Part shown: piece after piece, positions 11,036-22,421 of the stretch
Position numbering within the stretch: the first letter of the stretch is position 1
Layout: each line of letters opens with the position of its first letter
Assembly (NCBI GenBank): GCA_902599555.1
Contig: CACKFQ010000001.1
Coordinates: forward strand, 2,763 to 66,762
DNA length: 64,000 bases
Reading direction: 5' to 3'
Source: an uncultured Candidatus Actinomarina sp.
GTDB lineage: Bacteria > Actinomycetota > Acidimicrobiia > Actinomarinales > Actinomarinaceae
Program-made: the position numbers and the translations under genes
The notes under the pieces: model-generated
Told to the model about the DNA's origin: nothing
The model's database searches: none
The model's input: the letters and a program-made list of their open reading frames with translations, nothing else

Positions 11036-11110
11036 TGGCTGGGGGAGAAGGACTCGAACCCTCAACGTTGGGACCAAAACCCAATGTGTTGCCAATTACA
11101 CCATCCCCCA
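11036..11110 (-). tRNA. tRNA-Gln(TTG), CCA encoded
   Basis: Reverse complement TGGGGGATGGTGTAATTGGCAACAC-ATTGGG-TTTTGGT-CCCAAC-GTTGAGGGTTCGAGTCCTTC-TCCCCCAGCCA; anticodon TTG, U1-A72 pair. Confidence 0.97.
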
Positions 11111-19382: not shown

Positions 19383-19718
19383 TGGTGGAGGTGCGGGGAG
19401 TCGAACCCCGGTCCTTCCAAGCTACCTAACAGCTTCTCCGAGTGCATCCGATAAAATACGATCAGACTAGTTATCGGAACCTATGGCCTGAAAGGTTTAC
19501 CTTAATCTTAGTAGTTAGTCGGTATCCTAACTGAGCATCCCACATTTCGACGCCATTGCTATCCGAGGTGGGAGCCCCGATAGGTGACGAGCAGCTTATG
19601 CTGCTAAAGCCAACTTAGGTTTGGCAGTTATATTGTTTTCCTACGTTTTTAACGAGGCCCTAGGACCCTCGACTCGCTACTGAGAGACTCACTTCAAAGT
19701 CGAAGCCAGTTCACCCCC
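19383..19718 (-). ncRNA. ssrA: tmRNA; tag ORF 19596..19625 encodes (A)AKPKLALAA*
   Basis: 5' GGGGGTGAACTGGCTTCGAC, 3' GACCGGGGTTCGACTCCCCGCACCTCCACCA, resume context ATAACT-GCC; TATAAT upstream at 19746-19741. Confidence 0.95.
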
Positions 19719-19770: not shown

Positions 19771-20415
19771 ATGAAAATTAATAACAATAGCTTTGAATTA
19801 AATGAGAAATTATCAGTAATTATAGACTCTTCTGATAATGATGGATTGATATTCATCCCAAACAATATTGAATTAAATATTGAAATTGAAAATTATTTTG
19901 GAAAAATTACGATAAATAACATTGGAATCTCCCCTGTTGAAAGTGAATTTCAAATAAGCAAAAACAGTATTGAATCACATATACCAAATCTTGATATCAA
20001 ATTACTAGATAGGTATATATTTAAAGTTTTGTCTGATAAAGCAGGTCTTGCTTACTCTCCATATACCTACTTTCCAAATTACGACTTTACGGTTTTTGAA
20101 AAAGGAAGAAGGCCATCAAGCTTGGACTGGGCAATGTTTGCATCGTTATATGTATTTAGTTGCAATGTGCTCCCACAGTCTATCAAAGTTGAACTTTCGC
20201 TTGCTAAGTATTTAAGAATATCTGAGGAAAACTTGAAAAGATTTATGAAGAAAATTCCTGAAGATTTATTTAGGAAATCCGGACACATTGAATCTAGAGG
20301 TGGGGATATATCATTTAATGCCGAAAATCTCATCAAAGAATTTCTTGGTAACGATCAAGAATCTTTTGAGAACAATCCTTTTTTAAAATTTTACTCTGAG
20401 TCTGATTTTTCCTGA
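19771..20415 (+). CDS. Hypothetical protein, possible C-terminal helix-turn-helix
   Basis: 214-aa ORF filling the gap; no family recognised; LAKYLRISEENLKRFM is HTH-like. Confidence 0.6.
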   Translation: MKINNNSFELNEKLSVIIDSSDNDGLIFIPNNIELNIEIENYFGKITINNIGISPVESEFQISKNSIESHIPNLDIKLLDRYIFKVLSDKAGLAYSPYTYFPNYDFTVFEKGRRPSSLDWAMFASLYVFSCNVLPQSIKVELSLAKYLRISEENLKRFMKKIPEDLFRKSGHIESRGGDISFNAENLIKEFLGNDQESFENNPFLKFYSESDFS

Positions 20416-20834
20416 GCTCTGCTAACCATTGATATAACTTTATTAACTTTAATTTCCCATATTTCTCGATATGTAAATCCTGCTTCATCCCAGGTGACTT
20501 CTTCTGTTCTGCCATAAGGCTTACCCATATATCTATTTGATAAATAATCTATATGTTCATTAGCTGTTGGATCTTGAACTATTGTTTCCACAACACCTCT
20601 TATTTCCCAGCATGTATACATGTCAGTTGGATGAAATATAACAACTGAGATATTTGGTTCCTGTCTAATATTTTTTGTTTTTTTTCTTCCCTGTTCTGTA
20701 TTAATAAGAATTTTATCTTCTTTATAGTCAACCCACATCAAATGGTTTTGGATTTCTTTTTCATTTACTTTGGTTGCAAGTGCACAAAAAGCATTGTTAT
20801 CAATCGCTTGTTTAAGTTCAATTGGAAGTTGCAT
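20391..20834 (-). CDS. PPOX-class (pyridoxamine 5'-phosphate oxidase-like), putatively F420-dependent protein
   Basis: ALAT...G/E.IQ..LMWVD....ILINT..GRKKTKNI...P.ISV, EIRG.V, IDYLSNRYMG..Y. Confidence 0.85.
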   Translation of the reverse strand: MQLPIELKQAIDNNAFCALATKVNEKEIQNHLMWVDYKEDKILINTEQGRKKTKNIRQEPNISVVIFHPTDMYTCWEIRGVVETIVQDPTANEHIDYLSNRYMGKPYGRTEEVTWDEAGFTYREIWEIKVNKVISMVSRAQEKSDSE

Positions 20835-20864
20835 ACACACTCATTTTAAGTAAAAATTATTAAT

Positions 20865-21437
20865 ATGGCATTTATTAAATTGTTCAAATTTGAGGATTCG
20901 ACTGGACTTCTTAAAAAAGAGTATGAAAAAGGCATGAGAAGAGCTGGGAGAATTTGGAACGTTTTGACGATTCAGTCCCAAACACCTGAAATTCTAAGAG
21001 ACTCAATGCGTCTTTATAACTCGACTATGTGGGGAAATTCAAAATTATCAAGATTTGATAGAGAACTTCTTGCAGTTGTAACATCAATTACAAATGAGTG
21101 CGAATACTGAATTCGAGCTCATCTATATGATCTCCGGTCGGAGACAAATGATCAAGAACTAGTTGACCAGATTGCAGAAGACTGGAGAAGTAGCAGACTA
21201 AGCCCTGAACAAATTACATTATGTAAGTTTGCTGAAAAACTTACTAAAAAACCTGGAAGTATTAATCAAAAAGACTTTACAAATTTAAAAAAGGATGGTT
21301 TTGATGACAAAATTATTTCAGAAGCTGTCCAAATTATTTCCTATTTTAATTACATAAATAGAGTCGCAGACGGTTTAGGACTTTCTCCTGAAGAATTTAT
21401 TGATGAAAATGGTTATAAAATAAATCTTGAAGAATAA
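20865..21437 (+). CDS. AhpD/CMD-family peroxidase-related protein, 190 aa, with in-frame TGA at 21108..21110 (CxxU, candidate selenocysteine)
   Basis: LSRFDRELLAVVTSITNEC-E-Y-[TGA]-IRAH, then an open frame to TAA 21437 (..FAEKLTK.PG....D...L...GF.D..I.EAVQIISYFNYINRVADGLG); the downstream half has no ATG/GTG/TTG of its own. Confidence 0.85.
21119..21151 (+). promoter_or_regulatory. Candidate bacterial SECIS hairpin
   Basis: TCAT..TCTCC-GGTC-GGAGA..ATGA; the apical loop starts with G, 25 nt after the UGA. Confidence 0.65.
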
Positions 21438-21461: not shown

Positions 21462-22421
21462 ATGAAAATAAATCCTATATTCTCTTTGTTTACTTCGCTA
21501 ACTATTGCTTTTATTGTAGGATTTTCATTATCATCAAGTTTCAAACTTCCGTATGAACTAAGTCAATCATCAAACCTCGTATTAAATTATGATATAAAAA
21601 TTAATGAAGAAGATCCTGATCATAATTTCACTACTGAAAATCAAAAAAATGAAAACCTTGATGACATAGACAAGCTTTCTAATGAGACTAATGCAGATGA
21701 ATATACAAATATTACTTCCAATGATGTAGAGAAAAATGAAAACAGTATCTTACCCGAAAGCGACGGAGCAGAAGTAAAAATTACATCTTTTTCAATATAT
21801 CAAATGGATGAAGAAATTGTGAACAACAAAACTGTACCAAATATAGATATGTCAAAAGGCTGCTTGGTAGATGATATTTTAAATGATGAAAGAGTTTGGT
21901 ACTCACCCGATAGGTTAGAAAACTACACAAAAAGATTTTTCAACATTTCAATTCAAGTTGAGTTTGGTCTGAACTTAAATCCAAATTGTCTTGGAGAAAT
22001 GGTAATGGGAATATTAAATGACCCAAGGGGTTGGTCCACAGTTGAAAATCAATCATTTCAAATTGTTGATAAAGAAGATGCAGATTTAAATATTGTCTTT
22101 GCTAAACCTGAAACAGTTGATGAGCTGTGTTATCCACTACAAACAAATGGTATTTATTCATGCAGAAATGAAAAAAATGTTGTAATAAATATGTTCAGAT
22201 GGGTGTCGGGAGCAAAAGACTTTGATAAAGATCTAAGTACGTATCGTATTTATTTAATAAACCACGAAGTTGGACATTATCTCGGATGGGGACATAGTGA
22301 TTGCCCTTCTGAAAATGCGTTAGCTCCAGTAATGATGCAACAATCCAAAACAACTGATGGATGCATTCCAAATGGATGGCCAATCTATGAAAGAGTTAAA
22401 TTACTTTATAGTTCGCCTTAA
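21462..22421 (+). CDS. DUF3152-like exported zinc-dependent metalloprotease
   Basis: N-terminal hydrophobic segment; ILNDPRGW, YSCRN, INMFRW..G, YLINHEVGH.LG.GH..CP, APVMMQQSK. Confidence 0.85.
   Translation: MKINPIFSLFTSLTIAFIVGFSLSSSFKLPYELSQSSNLVLNYDIKINEEDPDHNFTTENQKNENLDDIDKLSNETNADEYTNITSNDVEKNENSILPESDGAEVKITSFSIYQMDEEIVNNKTVPNIDMSKGCLVDDILNDERVWYSPDRLENYTKRFFNISIQVEFGLNLNPNCLGEMVMGILNDPRGWSTVENQSFQIVDKEDADLNIVFAKPETVDELCYPLQTNGIYSCRNEKNVVINMFRWVSGAKDFDKDLSTYRIYLINHEVGHYLGWGHSDCPSENALAPVMMQQSKTTDGCIPNGWPIYERVKLLYSSP

What the first reader, a model, noticed from the sequence alone, without database searches (positions are those of the whole stretch)
20865..21437. Hidden candidate selenoprotein: AhpD/CMD-like peroxidase with CxxU and a SECIS-like hairpin
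Seen: the ORF track stops this gene at TGA 21108..21110, but that codon sits exactly where the second Cys of the AhpD CxxC motif belongs (NEC-E-Y-TGA-IRAH). The frame stays open for 108 more codons with the AhpD-like C-terminus (FNYINRVADGLG). That half has no ATG/GTG/TTG, so it cannot easily be a separate gene. A hairpin TCTCC-GGTC-GGAGA with an outer TCAT/ATGA stem has its G-initiated loop 25 nt after the UGA, and it is written in GC-rich codons (CTC CGG TCG GAG) that are unusual in this AT-rich DNA. Established: bacterial SECIS elements lie immediately 3' of the UGA with a G in the apical loop, and AhpD-like CxxU selenoproteins are reported from marine metagenomes. Inference: a streamlined marine actinobacterium, a group I do not know as Sec users, either keeps Sec decoding or uses another local UGA recoding route (e.g. 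UGA-to-Cys).
Basis: partly seen in the sequence, partly recalled or inferred. Interest (0 to 1): 0.88.

Follow-up and report, generated by a model that had tools for sequence, protein, structure and literature searches.

The report
AhpD-like selenoprotein gene in Actinomarina
The apparent stop codon inside this small antioxidant-type gene almost certainly encodes selenocysteine; the gene is real, but the protein family and the selenium use of this tiny marine bacterium were both already reported.

Summary
Window 20865-21437 (+) is one 190-codon gene with TGA at codon 82 (21108-21110). It matches NCBIfam TIGR01926 "peroxidase-related enzyme" at 143.8 bits (cut-off 81.8) across the TGA. The TGA replaces the second Cys of the CxxC motif.

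- **Conservation:** all 29 congeneric orthologues (68-96% identity) and two orthologues at 52% identity keep the TGA. More distant paralogues have TGC there. Downstream dN/dS is 0.15.
- **Hairpin:** UCUCC-GGUC-GGAGA (21131-21144) is written in rare codons. CGG, TCG and GAG are invariant in 29 species.
- **Machinery:** the organism is Candidatus Actinomarina. The genome has tRNA-Sec and a selA fragment cut by a contig end. selB and selD are missing from this 81%-complete assembly. selD is in 36/36 congeners, and a divergent selB follows selA in the closest relative.
- **Other targets:** two more genes here (SelW-like, Trx-like) also carry conserved TGA plus hairpins.

So this is canonical SelB/SECIS Sec decoding, not an error, a pseudogene or an exotic recoding. 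Novelty is low. "AhpD-like, TIGR01926, CxxU" has been a listed selenoprotein family since 2005. A 2026 preprint reports universal Sec machinery in Actinomarina. New here are the gene's identity in this genus and its SECIS.

The parts
20865..21437 (+). AhpD-like (TIGR01926 peroxidase-related enzyme) selenoprotein gene, 190 codons including Sec82, stop TAA 21435-21437
   Evidence: TIGR01926 scores 143.8 bits (cut-off 81.8) over residues 11-176. Orthologues of 186-190 codons with a single TGA occur in 29 congeners.
21108..21110 (+). In-frame TGA = Sec82 (CxxU; second position of the CxxC redox motif)
   Evidence: TGA in 29/29 congeneric orthologues and in the G037 and G051 orthologues. It aligns to Cys in PDB 3C1L and 6K40 and to TGC in the Cys paralogues.
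21099..21101 (+). Cys79 (TGC), partner of Sec82 in the C-E-Y-U motif
   Evidence: Cys is invariant, with TGC and TGT both in use.
21131..21144 (+). SECIS core hairpin: 5-bp stem UCUCC/GGAGA with GGUC tetraloop (loop 21136-21139)
   Evidence: RNAalifold finds only this helix, and 97.8% of cells are paired. Codons 91-93 (CGG TCG GAG) are invariant in 29 species although rare. CUC to CUU keeps the pair as G-U. The outer U-A becomes C-G in the G037 and G051 orthologues.
21063..21065 (+). Glu67 (GAA), invariant; at -15 from Sec82, the position of the proton-relay Glu in M. tuberculosis AhpD (residue mapping from memory)
   Evidence: column 67 is invariant Glu. The mapping to MtAhpD Glu118/Cys133/His137 is an inference, supported only weakly by the TIGR00777 alignment range.
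21120..21122 (+). His86 (CAT), invariant; at +4 from Sec82 (U-x-x-x-H)
   Evidence: column 86 is invariant His. The His is conserved in 3C1L and 6K40 and in all paralogues.
21119..21151 (+).
   Evidence: folds in this sequence. Searches show the complementary bases are absent in most congeners.

Best explanation
This is a genuine selenoprotein gene of Candidatus Actinomarina (OCS155, Acidimicrobiia). It belongs to the known AhpD-like selenoprotein family (NCBIfam TIGR01926 / COG2128, motif CxxU).

When the ribosome reaches UGA82, a SelB-GTP-Sec-tRNA(Sec) complex delivers selenocysteine instead of allowing termination. The complex is held on the mRNA by the hairpin UCUCC-GGUC-GGAGA, which starts 20 nt downstream. 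The product is a 190-residue all-helical AhpD-fold thiol/selenol oxidoreductase.

Sec82 sits at the nucleophilic position of the C-x-x-C/U centre, with Cys79 as the resolving partner. Invariant His86 and Glu67 are the likely proton relay. The protein most probably reduces peroxides directly, or re-reduces a peroxiredoxin-type partner, in a sunlit, ROS-rich habitat.

- **Shown:** the gene is continuous; the TGA and the hairpin are conserved; both sides of the TGA are under purifying selection; the Sec machinery is present in the genome or genus.
- **Inferred:** Sec is actually inserted; SelB binds this hairpin; the substrate and electron donor.
For: 1. **One gene across the TGA.** TIGR01926 143.8 bits over residues 11-176 and Pfam CMD over 41-103. 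No start codon in the second half.
2. **TGA conserved.** It is at codon 82 in 29/29 congeneric orthologues (68-96% aa identity). It is also in two orthologues of other families at 52% identity and in a second paralogue clade (CHYU). More distant paralogues and solved structures have Cys there.
3. **Purifying selection on both sides.** Median dN/dS is 0.07 upstream and 0.15 downstream, with dS about 1.3. There are no extra stops or frameshifts.
4. **RNA-level constraint on the hairpin.** Of 81 fully conserved degenerate codon columns, only 5 use one codon in all 29 species. Three of these are the consecutive rare codons CGG, TCG and GAG that make up the hairpin; the other two are the common AAA. 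The only changes are CUC to CUU (C-G to U-G) and U-A to C-G in distant orthologues.
5. **Machinery.** tRNA-Sec (UCA) at G000 C6:32172-32264 (ARAGORN; Rfam 75.4 bits). selA at C7:3-800, cut by the contig end. C7 starts inside selA when aligned to the closest relative (94.5% identity). There, selA is followed at once by a 559-aa SelB: TIGR00475 full length at 189 bits, with PF09107 SelB winged helix at 38.6 bits. selD is in 36/36 congeners, tRNA-Sec in 32/36 and selA in 31/36.
6. **Other targets in the same genome.** SelW-like/Rdx (C8:22375-22608) and a Trx/Redoxin-fold lipoprotein (C2:5843-6322) have TGA at the redox Cys position. Their 6-bp hairpins carry AGUUR loops 20-25 nt after the UGA, and the TGA is kept across the genus.
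7. **Literature.** AhpD-like/TIGR01926/CxxU is a listed selenoprotein family (PMC1088965, PMC2398784, PMC13188914). Sec machinery is universal in Actinomarina (bioRxiv 10.64898/2026.04.03.716425).
Against: - There is no direct evidence of Sec insertion.
- selB and selD are absent from this particular assembly. Their presence is inferred from the assembly being 80.8% complete, from a contig break inside selA and from the relatives.
- Covariation support for the hairpin is thin. One pair has a double change, in two sequences, and two congeners have a C-A mismatch at the outermost pair. The stem is only 5 bp.
- The single-sequence fold energy is unremarkable.
- The hairpin starts 20 nt after the UGA. 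That is further than the 10-11 nt seen for the other two genes here and, from memory, for E. coli fdhF.
- The gene is missing from 6 of 36 congeners, so it is not essential to the genus.
Confidence: 0.92

Rival explanations
1. UGA82 is recoded, but the residue inserted is Cys (or a Sec/Cys mixture). This could happen through Cys-tRNA(Sec) formed when selenium is scarce, or through near-cognate read-through. The same hairpin and SelB would be used.
For: Open-ocean selenium is scarce (general knowledge). Nothing tested here distinguishes the inserted residue. selD was not found in this assembly.
Against: selD is in 36/36 congeners, and there it carries its own in-frame TGA. A full selA/selB/selC set is maintained in genomes of about 1 Mb. 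If Cys were the intended residue, a TGC codon would do, as in the Cys paralogues. Yet TGA is fixed in all 29 species.
Confidence: 0.04
2. The TGA is a nonsense mutation or a sequencing/assembly error, so the gene is a pseudogene or really has TGC.
For: A single-genome view cannot exclude it. This is a draft assembly in 25 contigs.
Against: The same TGA is at the same codon in 29 independently assembled congeners and in more distant relatives. Downstream dN/dS is 0.15 with no further stops. The conserved hairpin has no role in a pseudogene.
Confidence: 0.01
3. Translation really ends at UGA82. The 81-residue N-terminal product is the functional protein, and the downstream frame is untranslated or made separately.
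For: Standard gene callers produce exactly this model.
Against: The stop would cut the CMD domain inside its active-site motif. The downstream frame is under purifying selection in this reading frame. It has no ATG, GTG or TTG start.
Confidence: 0.01
4. The organism reads UGA as a sense codon genome-wide (for example as Trp or Gly, NCBI tables 4 or 25).
For: Such codes exist in some small-genome bacteria (general knowledge).
Against: 180 ORFs of 150 aa or more end at TGA. After filtering, only three genes show a credible in-frame TGA, all at redox Cys positions. The only tRNA with a UCA anticodon is tRNA-Sec, and tRNA-Trp is CCA.
Confidence: 0.005

Closest known systems
AhpD-like selenoprotein family (AhpD-like 1; COG2128 / NCBIfam TIGR01926, CxxU). 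Described from the Sargasso Sea and GOS metagenomes (PMC1088965, PMC2398784) and listed in the 2026 review PMC13188914.
   Same: It has the same NCBIfam model (143.8 bits, cut-off 81.8), the same CxxU motif and the same marine surface-water origin. A SECIS with G in the apical loop follows the UGA. Cys homologues are widespread.
   Different: Nothing defining differs. What is added is the host assignment (Candidatus Actinomarina) and the exact SECIS: a 5-bp stem with a GGUC tetraloop, 25 nt after the UGA. The metagenome papers did not give the host.
DR1765, the AhpD-like protein of Deinococcus radiodurans (PDB 6K40), and Mlr4105 (PDB 3C1L)
   Same: Same length class and fold family (E = 1.8e-25 and 1.5e-25 over about 160 residues). 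The C-x-x-C-x-x-x-H motif sits at the same place. The DR1765 mutant is H2O2-sensitive, and complementation needs the CxxC cysteines (Zhao et al. 2020, as summarised in PMC8945050).
   Different: Those proteins have Cys where this one has Sec. No activity data exist for the Actinomarina protein.
Mycobacterium tuberculosis AhpD (NCBIfam TIGR00777)
   Same: CMD/AhpD fold and a CxxC-type centre with a His four residues after the second Cys. It is the likely model for the chemistry: a nucleophilic second Cys or Sec, with reduction of AhpC or peroxides.
   Different: This gene is not a member: 17.5 bits against a cut-off of 191.95. No ahpC-ahpD operon context is present. The neighbours are a PNPOx-family gene and a DUF3152 gene.
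E. coli fdhF-type bacterial SECIS with SelB
   Same: A hairpin lies directly 3' of the UGA inside the coding sequence. The apical loop is GGUC, with G-U as the likely SelB contact (the fdhF loop sequence is recalled from memory). The genus's SelB has the C-terminal winged-helix domain PF09107.
   Different: The stem is shorter (5 bp, no bulged U). The loop lies about 7 nt further from the UGA. SelB is divergent: 189 bits against a TIGR00475 cut-off of 242.

Membership tests
AhpD-like selenoprotein family (TIGR01926 peroxidase-related enzyme, CxxU) | Scores above the curated TIGR01926 cut-off over the full length | tested here: met
   143.8 bits against a cut-off of 81.8; residues 11-176 match model positions 10-176 of 178.
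AhpD-like selenoprotein family (TIGR01926 peroxidase-related enzyme, CxxU) | In-frame UGA at the second position of the CxxC redox motif, with Cys in homologues at the same column | tested here: met
   NECEYU-IRAH. Cys is aligned in 3C1L and 6K40, and TGC is present in the paralogues L068-L071.
AhpD-like selenoprotein family (TIGR01926 peroxidase-related enzyme, CxxU) | Sec actually incorporated; thiol/selenol peroxidase or reductase activity | not testable with these tools
   Needs mass spectrometry, 75Se labelling or enzyme assays.
Bacterial SECIS element | Stem-loop within the coding sequence shortly 3' of the UGA, with the apical loop about 16-37 nt downstream (the bSECISearch range, recalled from memory) | tested here: met
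   Stem at 21131-21135 / 21140-21144. The loop starts 25 nt after the UGA.
Bacterial SECIS element | Conserved G (G-U) in the apical loop | tested here: met
   The GGUC loop is invariant in 29 congeners and in G051. The other two selenoprotein genes of the genome have AGUUR loops.
Bacterial SECIS element | Structure maintained by selection (covariation or suppressed synonymous change) | tested here: met
   Synonymous variation is abolished at the rare codons CGG, TCG and GAG. These are 3 of only 5 single-codon columns among 81. Covariation alone is weak: 1 pair has a double change, and 5 of 500 shuffles reach the score.
Bacterial SECIS element | Binding by SelB and hairpin-dependent UGA read-through | not testable with these tools
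   Needs a reporter or binding assay.
Sec-decoding trait (selA, selB, selC, selD) | tRNA-Sec (selC) with UCA anticodon in the genome | tested here: met
   G000 C6:32172-32264. ARAGORN; Rfam RF01852 at 75.4 bits, gathering score 47.
Sec-decoding trait (selA, selB, selC, selD) | selA present | tested here: met
   C7:3-800 scores 275.5 bits against a cut-off of 267.9, truncated by the contig end. selA is in 31/36 congeners.
Sec-decoding trait (selA, selB, selC, selD) | selB present | tested here: inconclusive
   Not in this assembly. In the closest relative a 559-aa SelB follows selA: TIGR00475 at 189 bits (below the 242 cut-off but full length), plus PF09107. G000 contig C7 breaks inside selA. 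My genus-wide search used too strict an E-value and is uninformative.
Sec-decoding trait (selA, selB, selC, selD) | selD present | tested here: inconclusive
   Not in this 80.8%-complete assembly. Present in 36/36 congeners above the cut-off, each listed full-length match with one in-frame TGA.
M. tuberculosis-type AhpD (TIGR00777) | Scores above the TIGR00777 cut-off | tested here: not met
   17.5 bits against a cut-off of 191.95. It is a superfamily relative only.
AhpD_rel_CFYUT (seleno)protein (NF041238) | Scores above the NF041238 cut-off; length of about 357 aa | tested here: not met
   54.4 bits against a cut-off of 175. Only the C-terminal half of that model is matched, and this protein is 190 aa.

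The most novel reading that the evidence does not exclude
Actinomarina may run a pared-down Sec system. It would combine a divergent SelB with minimal 5-6-bp hairpins carrying RGUY loops at variable spacing (loop at +20 to +29 from the U of UGA). It would serve a fixed set of four targets: SelD, SelW-like, Trx-like and AhpD-like. These are exactly the four most abundant prokaryotic selenoprotein families in the GOS ocean survey (PMC2398784). If so, this one abundant genus may account for a large share of the surface-ocean selenoproteome. The preprint's 'uncharacterised' families would then be these known redox families.
Probability: 0.35. Interest if true: 0.45.

Novelty: new member of a known kind. 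Interest (0 to 1): 0.25.

Why it matters
The result corrects an annotation error. Standard gene callers truncate this gene to 81 residues and lose the catalytic half.

It also puts names on selenoproteins of one of the smallest and most abundant free-living marine bacteria. The only study of Sec in this genus left most targets "uncharacterised" and found no SECIS elements.

The result shows which redox chemistry makes a dedicated Sec pathway worth keeping in a 1-Mb genome: an AhpD-fold peroxidase/reductase, a SelW-like protein and a secreted thioredoxin-fold protein. It gives a concrete SECIS pattern for finding selenoproteins in Acidimicrobiia. It does not reveal a new mechanism.

Tried and rejected
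- **Single-sequence folding.** The hairpin region is no more stable than shuffles, so thermodynamics alone cannot support the SECIS.
It is not conserved in the congeners.
- **selB search across 36 congeners.** I set max E = 1e-70, which returned nothing. That was my threshold error: the real SelB scores E = 1.4e-55. The null result must not be read as absence.
- **First genome-wide read-through scan.** Codon-usage scoring was swamped by antisense frames of real genes. It worked only after I removed candidates overlapped by longer ORFs.
- **Other read-through candidates.** C1:2739, C12:442, C1:4738 and C11:24571 had no Pfam hit or looked like antisense or low-complexity translation, so I rejected them. 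C6:4907, C19:2060 and C20:2675 look like adjacent genes that share a frame.
- **Rfam.** No curated family covers the hairpin. Rfam has no usable bacterial SECIS model.
- **The search of earlier findings.** It returned nothing relevant.
- **Genome-wide UGA reassignment, pseudogene and truncated product.** All considered and rejected; see the rival explanations.

Full report
**1. The observation**

The + strand ORF that starts at ATG 20865 stops at TGA 21108-21110 after 81 codons. The same frame then runs open for 108 more codons to TAA 21435-21437. No ORF of 40 aa or more starts inside the second half.

Read through, the 190-residue product matches Pfam CMD (PF02627, E = 2.4e-11, residues 41-103). 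It also matches NCBIfam TIGR01926 "peroxidase-related enzyme" at 143.8 bits against a cut-off of 81.8, over residues 11-176 of a 178-position model. Both matches cross the TGA, so the two halves are one gene.

The local motif is N-E-C-E-Y-TGA-I-R-A-H. In the closest solved structures the TGA column is the second Cys of C-x-x-C-x-x-x-H. These structures are 3C1L (Mlr4105) and 6K40 (D. radiodurans DR1765), with E about 1e-25.

The loop begins 25 nt after the UGA.

**2. Is the TGA real and conserved?**

A six-frame search of 60 relatives found the gene in 30 of 36 genomes of the same genus. One of those 30 matches is a 37-residue fragment (G020) and three are partial pieces on separate G027 contigs. 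Every full-length match has exactly one in-frame TGA.

After extracting and orienting the loci, the TGA is at codon 82 in all 29 congeneric sequences, including the window's own (68-96% protein identity). All are 186-190 codons long with no other stop.

Two orthologues in other families of the class (52% identity) also have TGA at this column. So does a second paralogue clade (N-D-C-H-Y-U, 33-36% identity). More distant paralogues (N-D-C-L-Y-C) have TGC. This is the classic Sec/Cys pattern.

Across 292 informative pairs of the 29 sequences, median dN/dS is 0.07 upstream and 0.15 downstream of the TGA, at dS of about 1.3. The downstream half is therefore translated in this frame. Sequencing error, pseudogene and "stops at 81 aa" are excluded.

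**3. The hairpin**

On its own the region folds no better than shuffled sequence (z = 0.22). The evidence is comparative.

In a codon alignment of the 29 species, 81 columns have an invariant amino acid with a degenerate codon. Only five of these use a single codon everywhere. Two are AAA, the genome's preferred Lys codon. The other three are the consecutive codons 91-93, CGG-TCG-GAG. In this 32.9% GC genome CGG is 0.9% of Arg codons, TCG 3.8% of Ser and GAG 23.6% of Glu. Other invariant Arg columns in the gene use 3-5 different codons.

Codon 90 is CTC or CTT only, which turns a C-G pair into U-G. RNAalifold on 27 distinct sequences predicts exactly this 5-bp helix and nothing else. In that helix 97.8% of cells are paired, against 44-59% when the partner is slid.

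True covariation is thin. The outermost U-A becomes C-G in the two GC-rich orthologues, where the stem lengthens to 6 bp (G037: GACCUC/GAGGUC, loop CGUGCC) or 7 bp (G051: GACCUCC-GGUC-GGAGGUC). Two congeners have a C-A mismatch at that outermost pair.

The independent CHYU paralogue clade carries CCGGCGC-GGUCU-GCGCCGG, with GGUC at +22 to +25 from the U of UGA. The Cys paralogues show no comparable hairpin on inspection of the same stretch.

A hairpin of this class follows 0.86% of all TGA triplets and 3 of 180 genuine TGA stops in this genome.

**4. The Sec machinery**

The window lies in a 1.02-Mb assembly of 25 contigs, 32.9% GC and 80.8% complete.

- **selC:** ARAGORN finds tRNA-SeC (UCA) at C6:32172-32264. 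Rfam RF01852 scores it 75.4 bits against a gathering score of 47.
- **selA:** it is at C7:3-800 (275.5 bits, cut-off 267.9) and runs off the contig end.
- **selB and selD:** neither is in the assembly.

The relatives explain the gap.

- selD is present above the cut-off in 36/36 congeners. Each listed full-length match carries one in-frame TGA of its own.
- tRNA-Sec is in 32/36 congeners and selA in 31/36.
- In the closest relative (G026, AhpD-like gene 96% identical) selA is followed, with overlapping stop and start, by a 559-aa GTPase.
- That protein's best NCBIfam hit is selB. The alignment is full length (residues 3-542 to model 2-566 of 581) at 189 bits, below the 242 cut-off.
- It also has the SECIS-binding winged-helix domain PF09107 at 38.6 bits, above its 23.2 cut-off.
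- G000 contig C7 aligns to that locus at 94.5% identity and begins inside selA. The rest of selA, and selB, lie in an assembly gap.

My genus-wide selB search used too strict an E-value and is uninformative.

**5. Other selenoprotein genes in the same genome**

I scanned for TGA read-through ORFs not overlapped by longer ORFs. The scan recovered the AhpD-like gene and two more.

- **Trx-like:** a 160-aa lipoprotein-like thioredoxin/Redoxin-fold protein with W-A-D-Y-U-G-V-C, at C2:5843-6322 (Pfam Redoxin 28.3 bits, cut-off 26.6).
- **SelW-like:** a 78-aa SelW-like/Rdx protein with F-C-V-V-U, at C8:22375-22608 (PF10262, 58.7 bits).

Both keep a single TGA across the genus (35 of 37 and 32 of 37 genomes). 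Both have conserved 6-bp hairpins with AGUUR loops 20-25 nt from the UGA. Their stem changes are G-C to G-U and G-U to A-U.

So Sec decoding serves several targets here. The loops share a G-U step, as in the GGUC loop of this gene.

**6. Organism and literature**

Related loci are titled "uncultured Candidatus Actinomarina sp." or "OCS155 cluster bacterium".

- The AhpD-like protein (COG2128, CxxU) was described as a new selenoprotein family in the Sargasso Sea data (27 sequences, PMC1088965).
- It was the fourth most abundant prokaryotic selenoprotein family in GOS (AhpD-like 1, 299 genes in 37 samples, PMC2398784).
- The 2026 review PMC13188914 lists it as "AhpD-like protein, TIGR01926, CxxU".
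- The preprint "Actinomarina, resolved" (bioRxiv 10.64898/2026.04.03.716425) reports selC, selA, selD and a divergent selB in all 84 complete genomes. It reports about 5 deep-Sep-predicted selenoproteins per genome.
- The preprint does not mention AhpD or peroxidases. It calls most families uncharacterised and found no SECIS with Rfam models. Rfam also finds nothing at this hairpin.

**7. Mechanism**

The most likely mechanism is canonical bacterial Sec insertion.

1. SelA converts Ser-tRNA(Sec) to Sec-tRNA(Sec), using selenophosphate made by SelD.
2. SelB binds the charged tRNA and, through its C-terminal winged helices, the GGUC hairpin.
3. The complex decodes UGA82.

The product is an AhpD-fold oxidoreductase with a C79-x-x-U82 centre. 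His86 (+4) and Glu67 (-15) are invariant. From memory, they correspond to His137 and Glu118 around the nucleophilic Cys133 of M. tuberculosis AhpD. This mapping is an inference. The TIGR00777 alignment range is compatible with it, but that hit is far below the cut-off.

The nearest characterised homologue is DR1765. It protects D. radiodurans against H2O2 in a CxxC-dependent manner (Zhao et al. 2020, as summarised in PMC8945050).

The flanking genes give no operon clue to the partner. They are a divergent PNPOx-family gene at 20391-20840 (-) and a DUF3152 metalloprotease-like gene at 21462-22421 (+).

**8. Verdict**

I put the probability that this is a SelB/SECIS-decoded selenoprotein gene at about 0.92. 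The remainder is mostly the possibility that Cys rather than Sec is inserted.

The finding is a member of an established family in a genus whose Sec use has just been reported. It is a useful annotation and SECIS definition, but not a surprise. Interest is about 0.25.

Noticed in passing
G000 C8:22375-22608 (- strand; outside the window): A 78-aa SelW-like/Rdx selenoprotein gene (PF10262, 58.7 bits) with F-C-V-V-U. Its SECIS is UCGUGC-AGUUG-GCACGA. The TGA is kept in 35 of 37 genus genomes. It is probably the 'uncharacterised 78-aa most abundant family' of the Actinomarina preprint.
   Followed up: partly
G000 C2:5843-6322 (+ strand; outside the window): A 160-aa lipoprotein-like thioredoxin/Redoxin-fold selenoprotein gene with W-A-D-Y-U-G-V-C. 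Its SECIS is GGCGGG-AGUUA-CCUGUC. The TGA is kept in 32 genus genomes, down to 46% identity, with compensatory stem changes.
   Followed up: partly
Genus level (PMC2398784): The four Actinomarina selenoprotein families (SelD, SelW-like, Trx-like, AhpD-like) are exactly the four most abundant prokaryotic selenoprotein families in the GOS survey. The genus may therefore supply much of the surface-ocean selenoproteome.
   Followed up: no
L047 and L048 (selD of congeners G025 and G031): selD of the genus is itself a selenoprotein: G-A-G-U-A-C-K with U at residue 17. All listed full-length selD matches in the 36 congeners carry one in-frame TGA. The preprint says only about half of its genomes have the Sec form.
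   Followed up: partly
window 19383-19718 (-) and 11039-11110 (-): A tmRNA gene (Rfam 144.3 bits; ARAGORN tag peptide AKPKLALAA) lies 1.1 kb upstream of the finding. A tRNA (Gln, UUG) is at 11039-11110.
   Followed up: no
G000 C1:2743-2770 (straddles the window start, window 1-8): A strong hairpin, AGCGGCUUUGG-UGAC-CCAAGAGCCGCU, lies in a stretch that folds at -19 kcal/mol. It directly follows a TGA in an open frame with no Pfam hit. The frame looks like an antisense or low-complexity translation. The hairpin is unexplained.
   Followed up: no
G008 and G009 (congeners): These two well-assembled congeners (1 and 5 contigs) show no selA match. Yet they have selD, tRNA-Sec and TGA-containing selenoprotein genes. 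The region may be missing from the assemblies, since the preprint places selA at the boundary of the hypervariable region.
   Followed up: no
L064-L067 (G042, G051, G059, G037; other Acidimicrobiia): A second Sec-containing AhpD-like paralogue clade (N-D-C-H-Y-U...H-H-R-R-G-L-R-R-L-L) has a 7-bp hairpin and a GGUCU loop. The GGUC sits at +22 to +25 from the UGA, which from memory is the E. coli fdhF spacing.
   Followed up: partly
window 21462-22421 (+) and 20391-20840 (-): The neighbours are a DUF3152 / zinc-metalloprotease-like protein (H-E-V-G-H motif) with an N-terminal hydrophobic segment, and a divergently oriented PNPOx-family flavoprotein. Neither has an obvious functional link to the selenoprotein.
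   Followed up: partly
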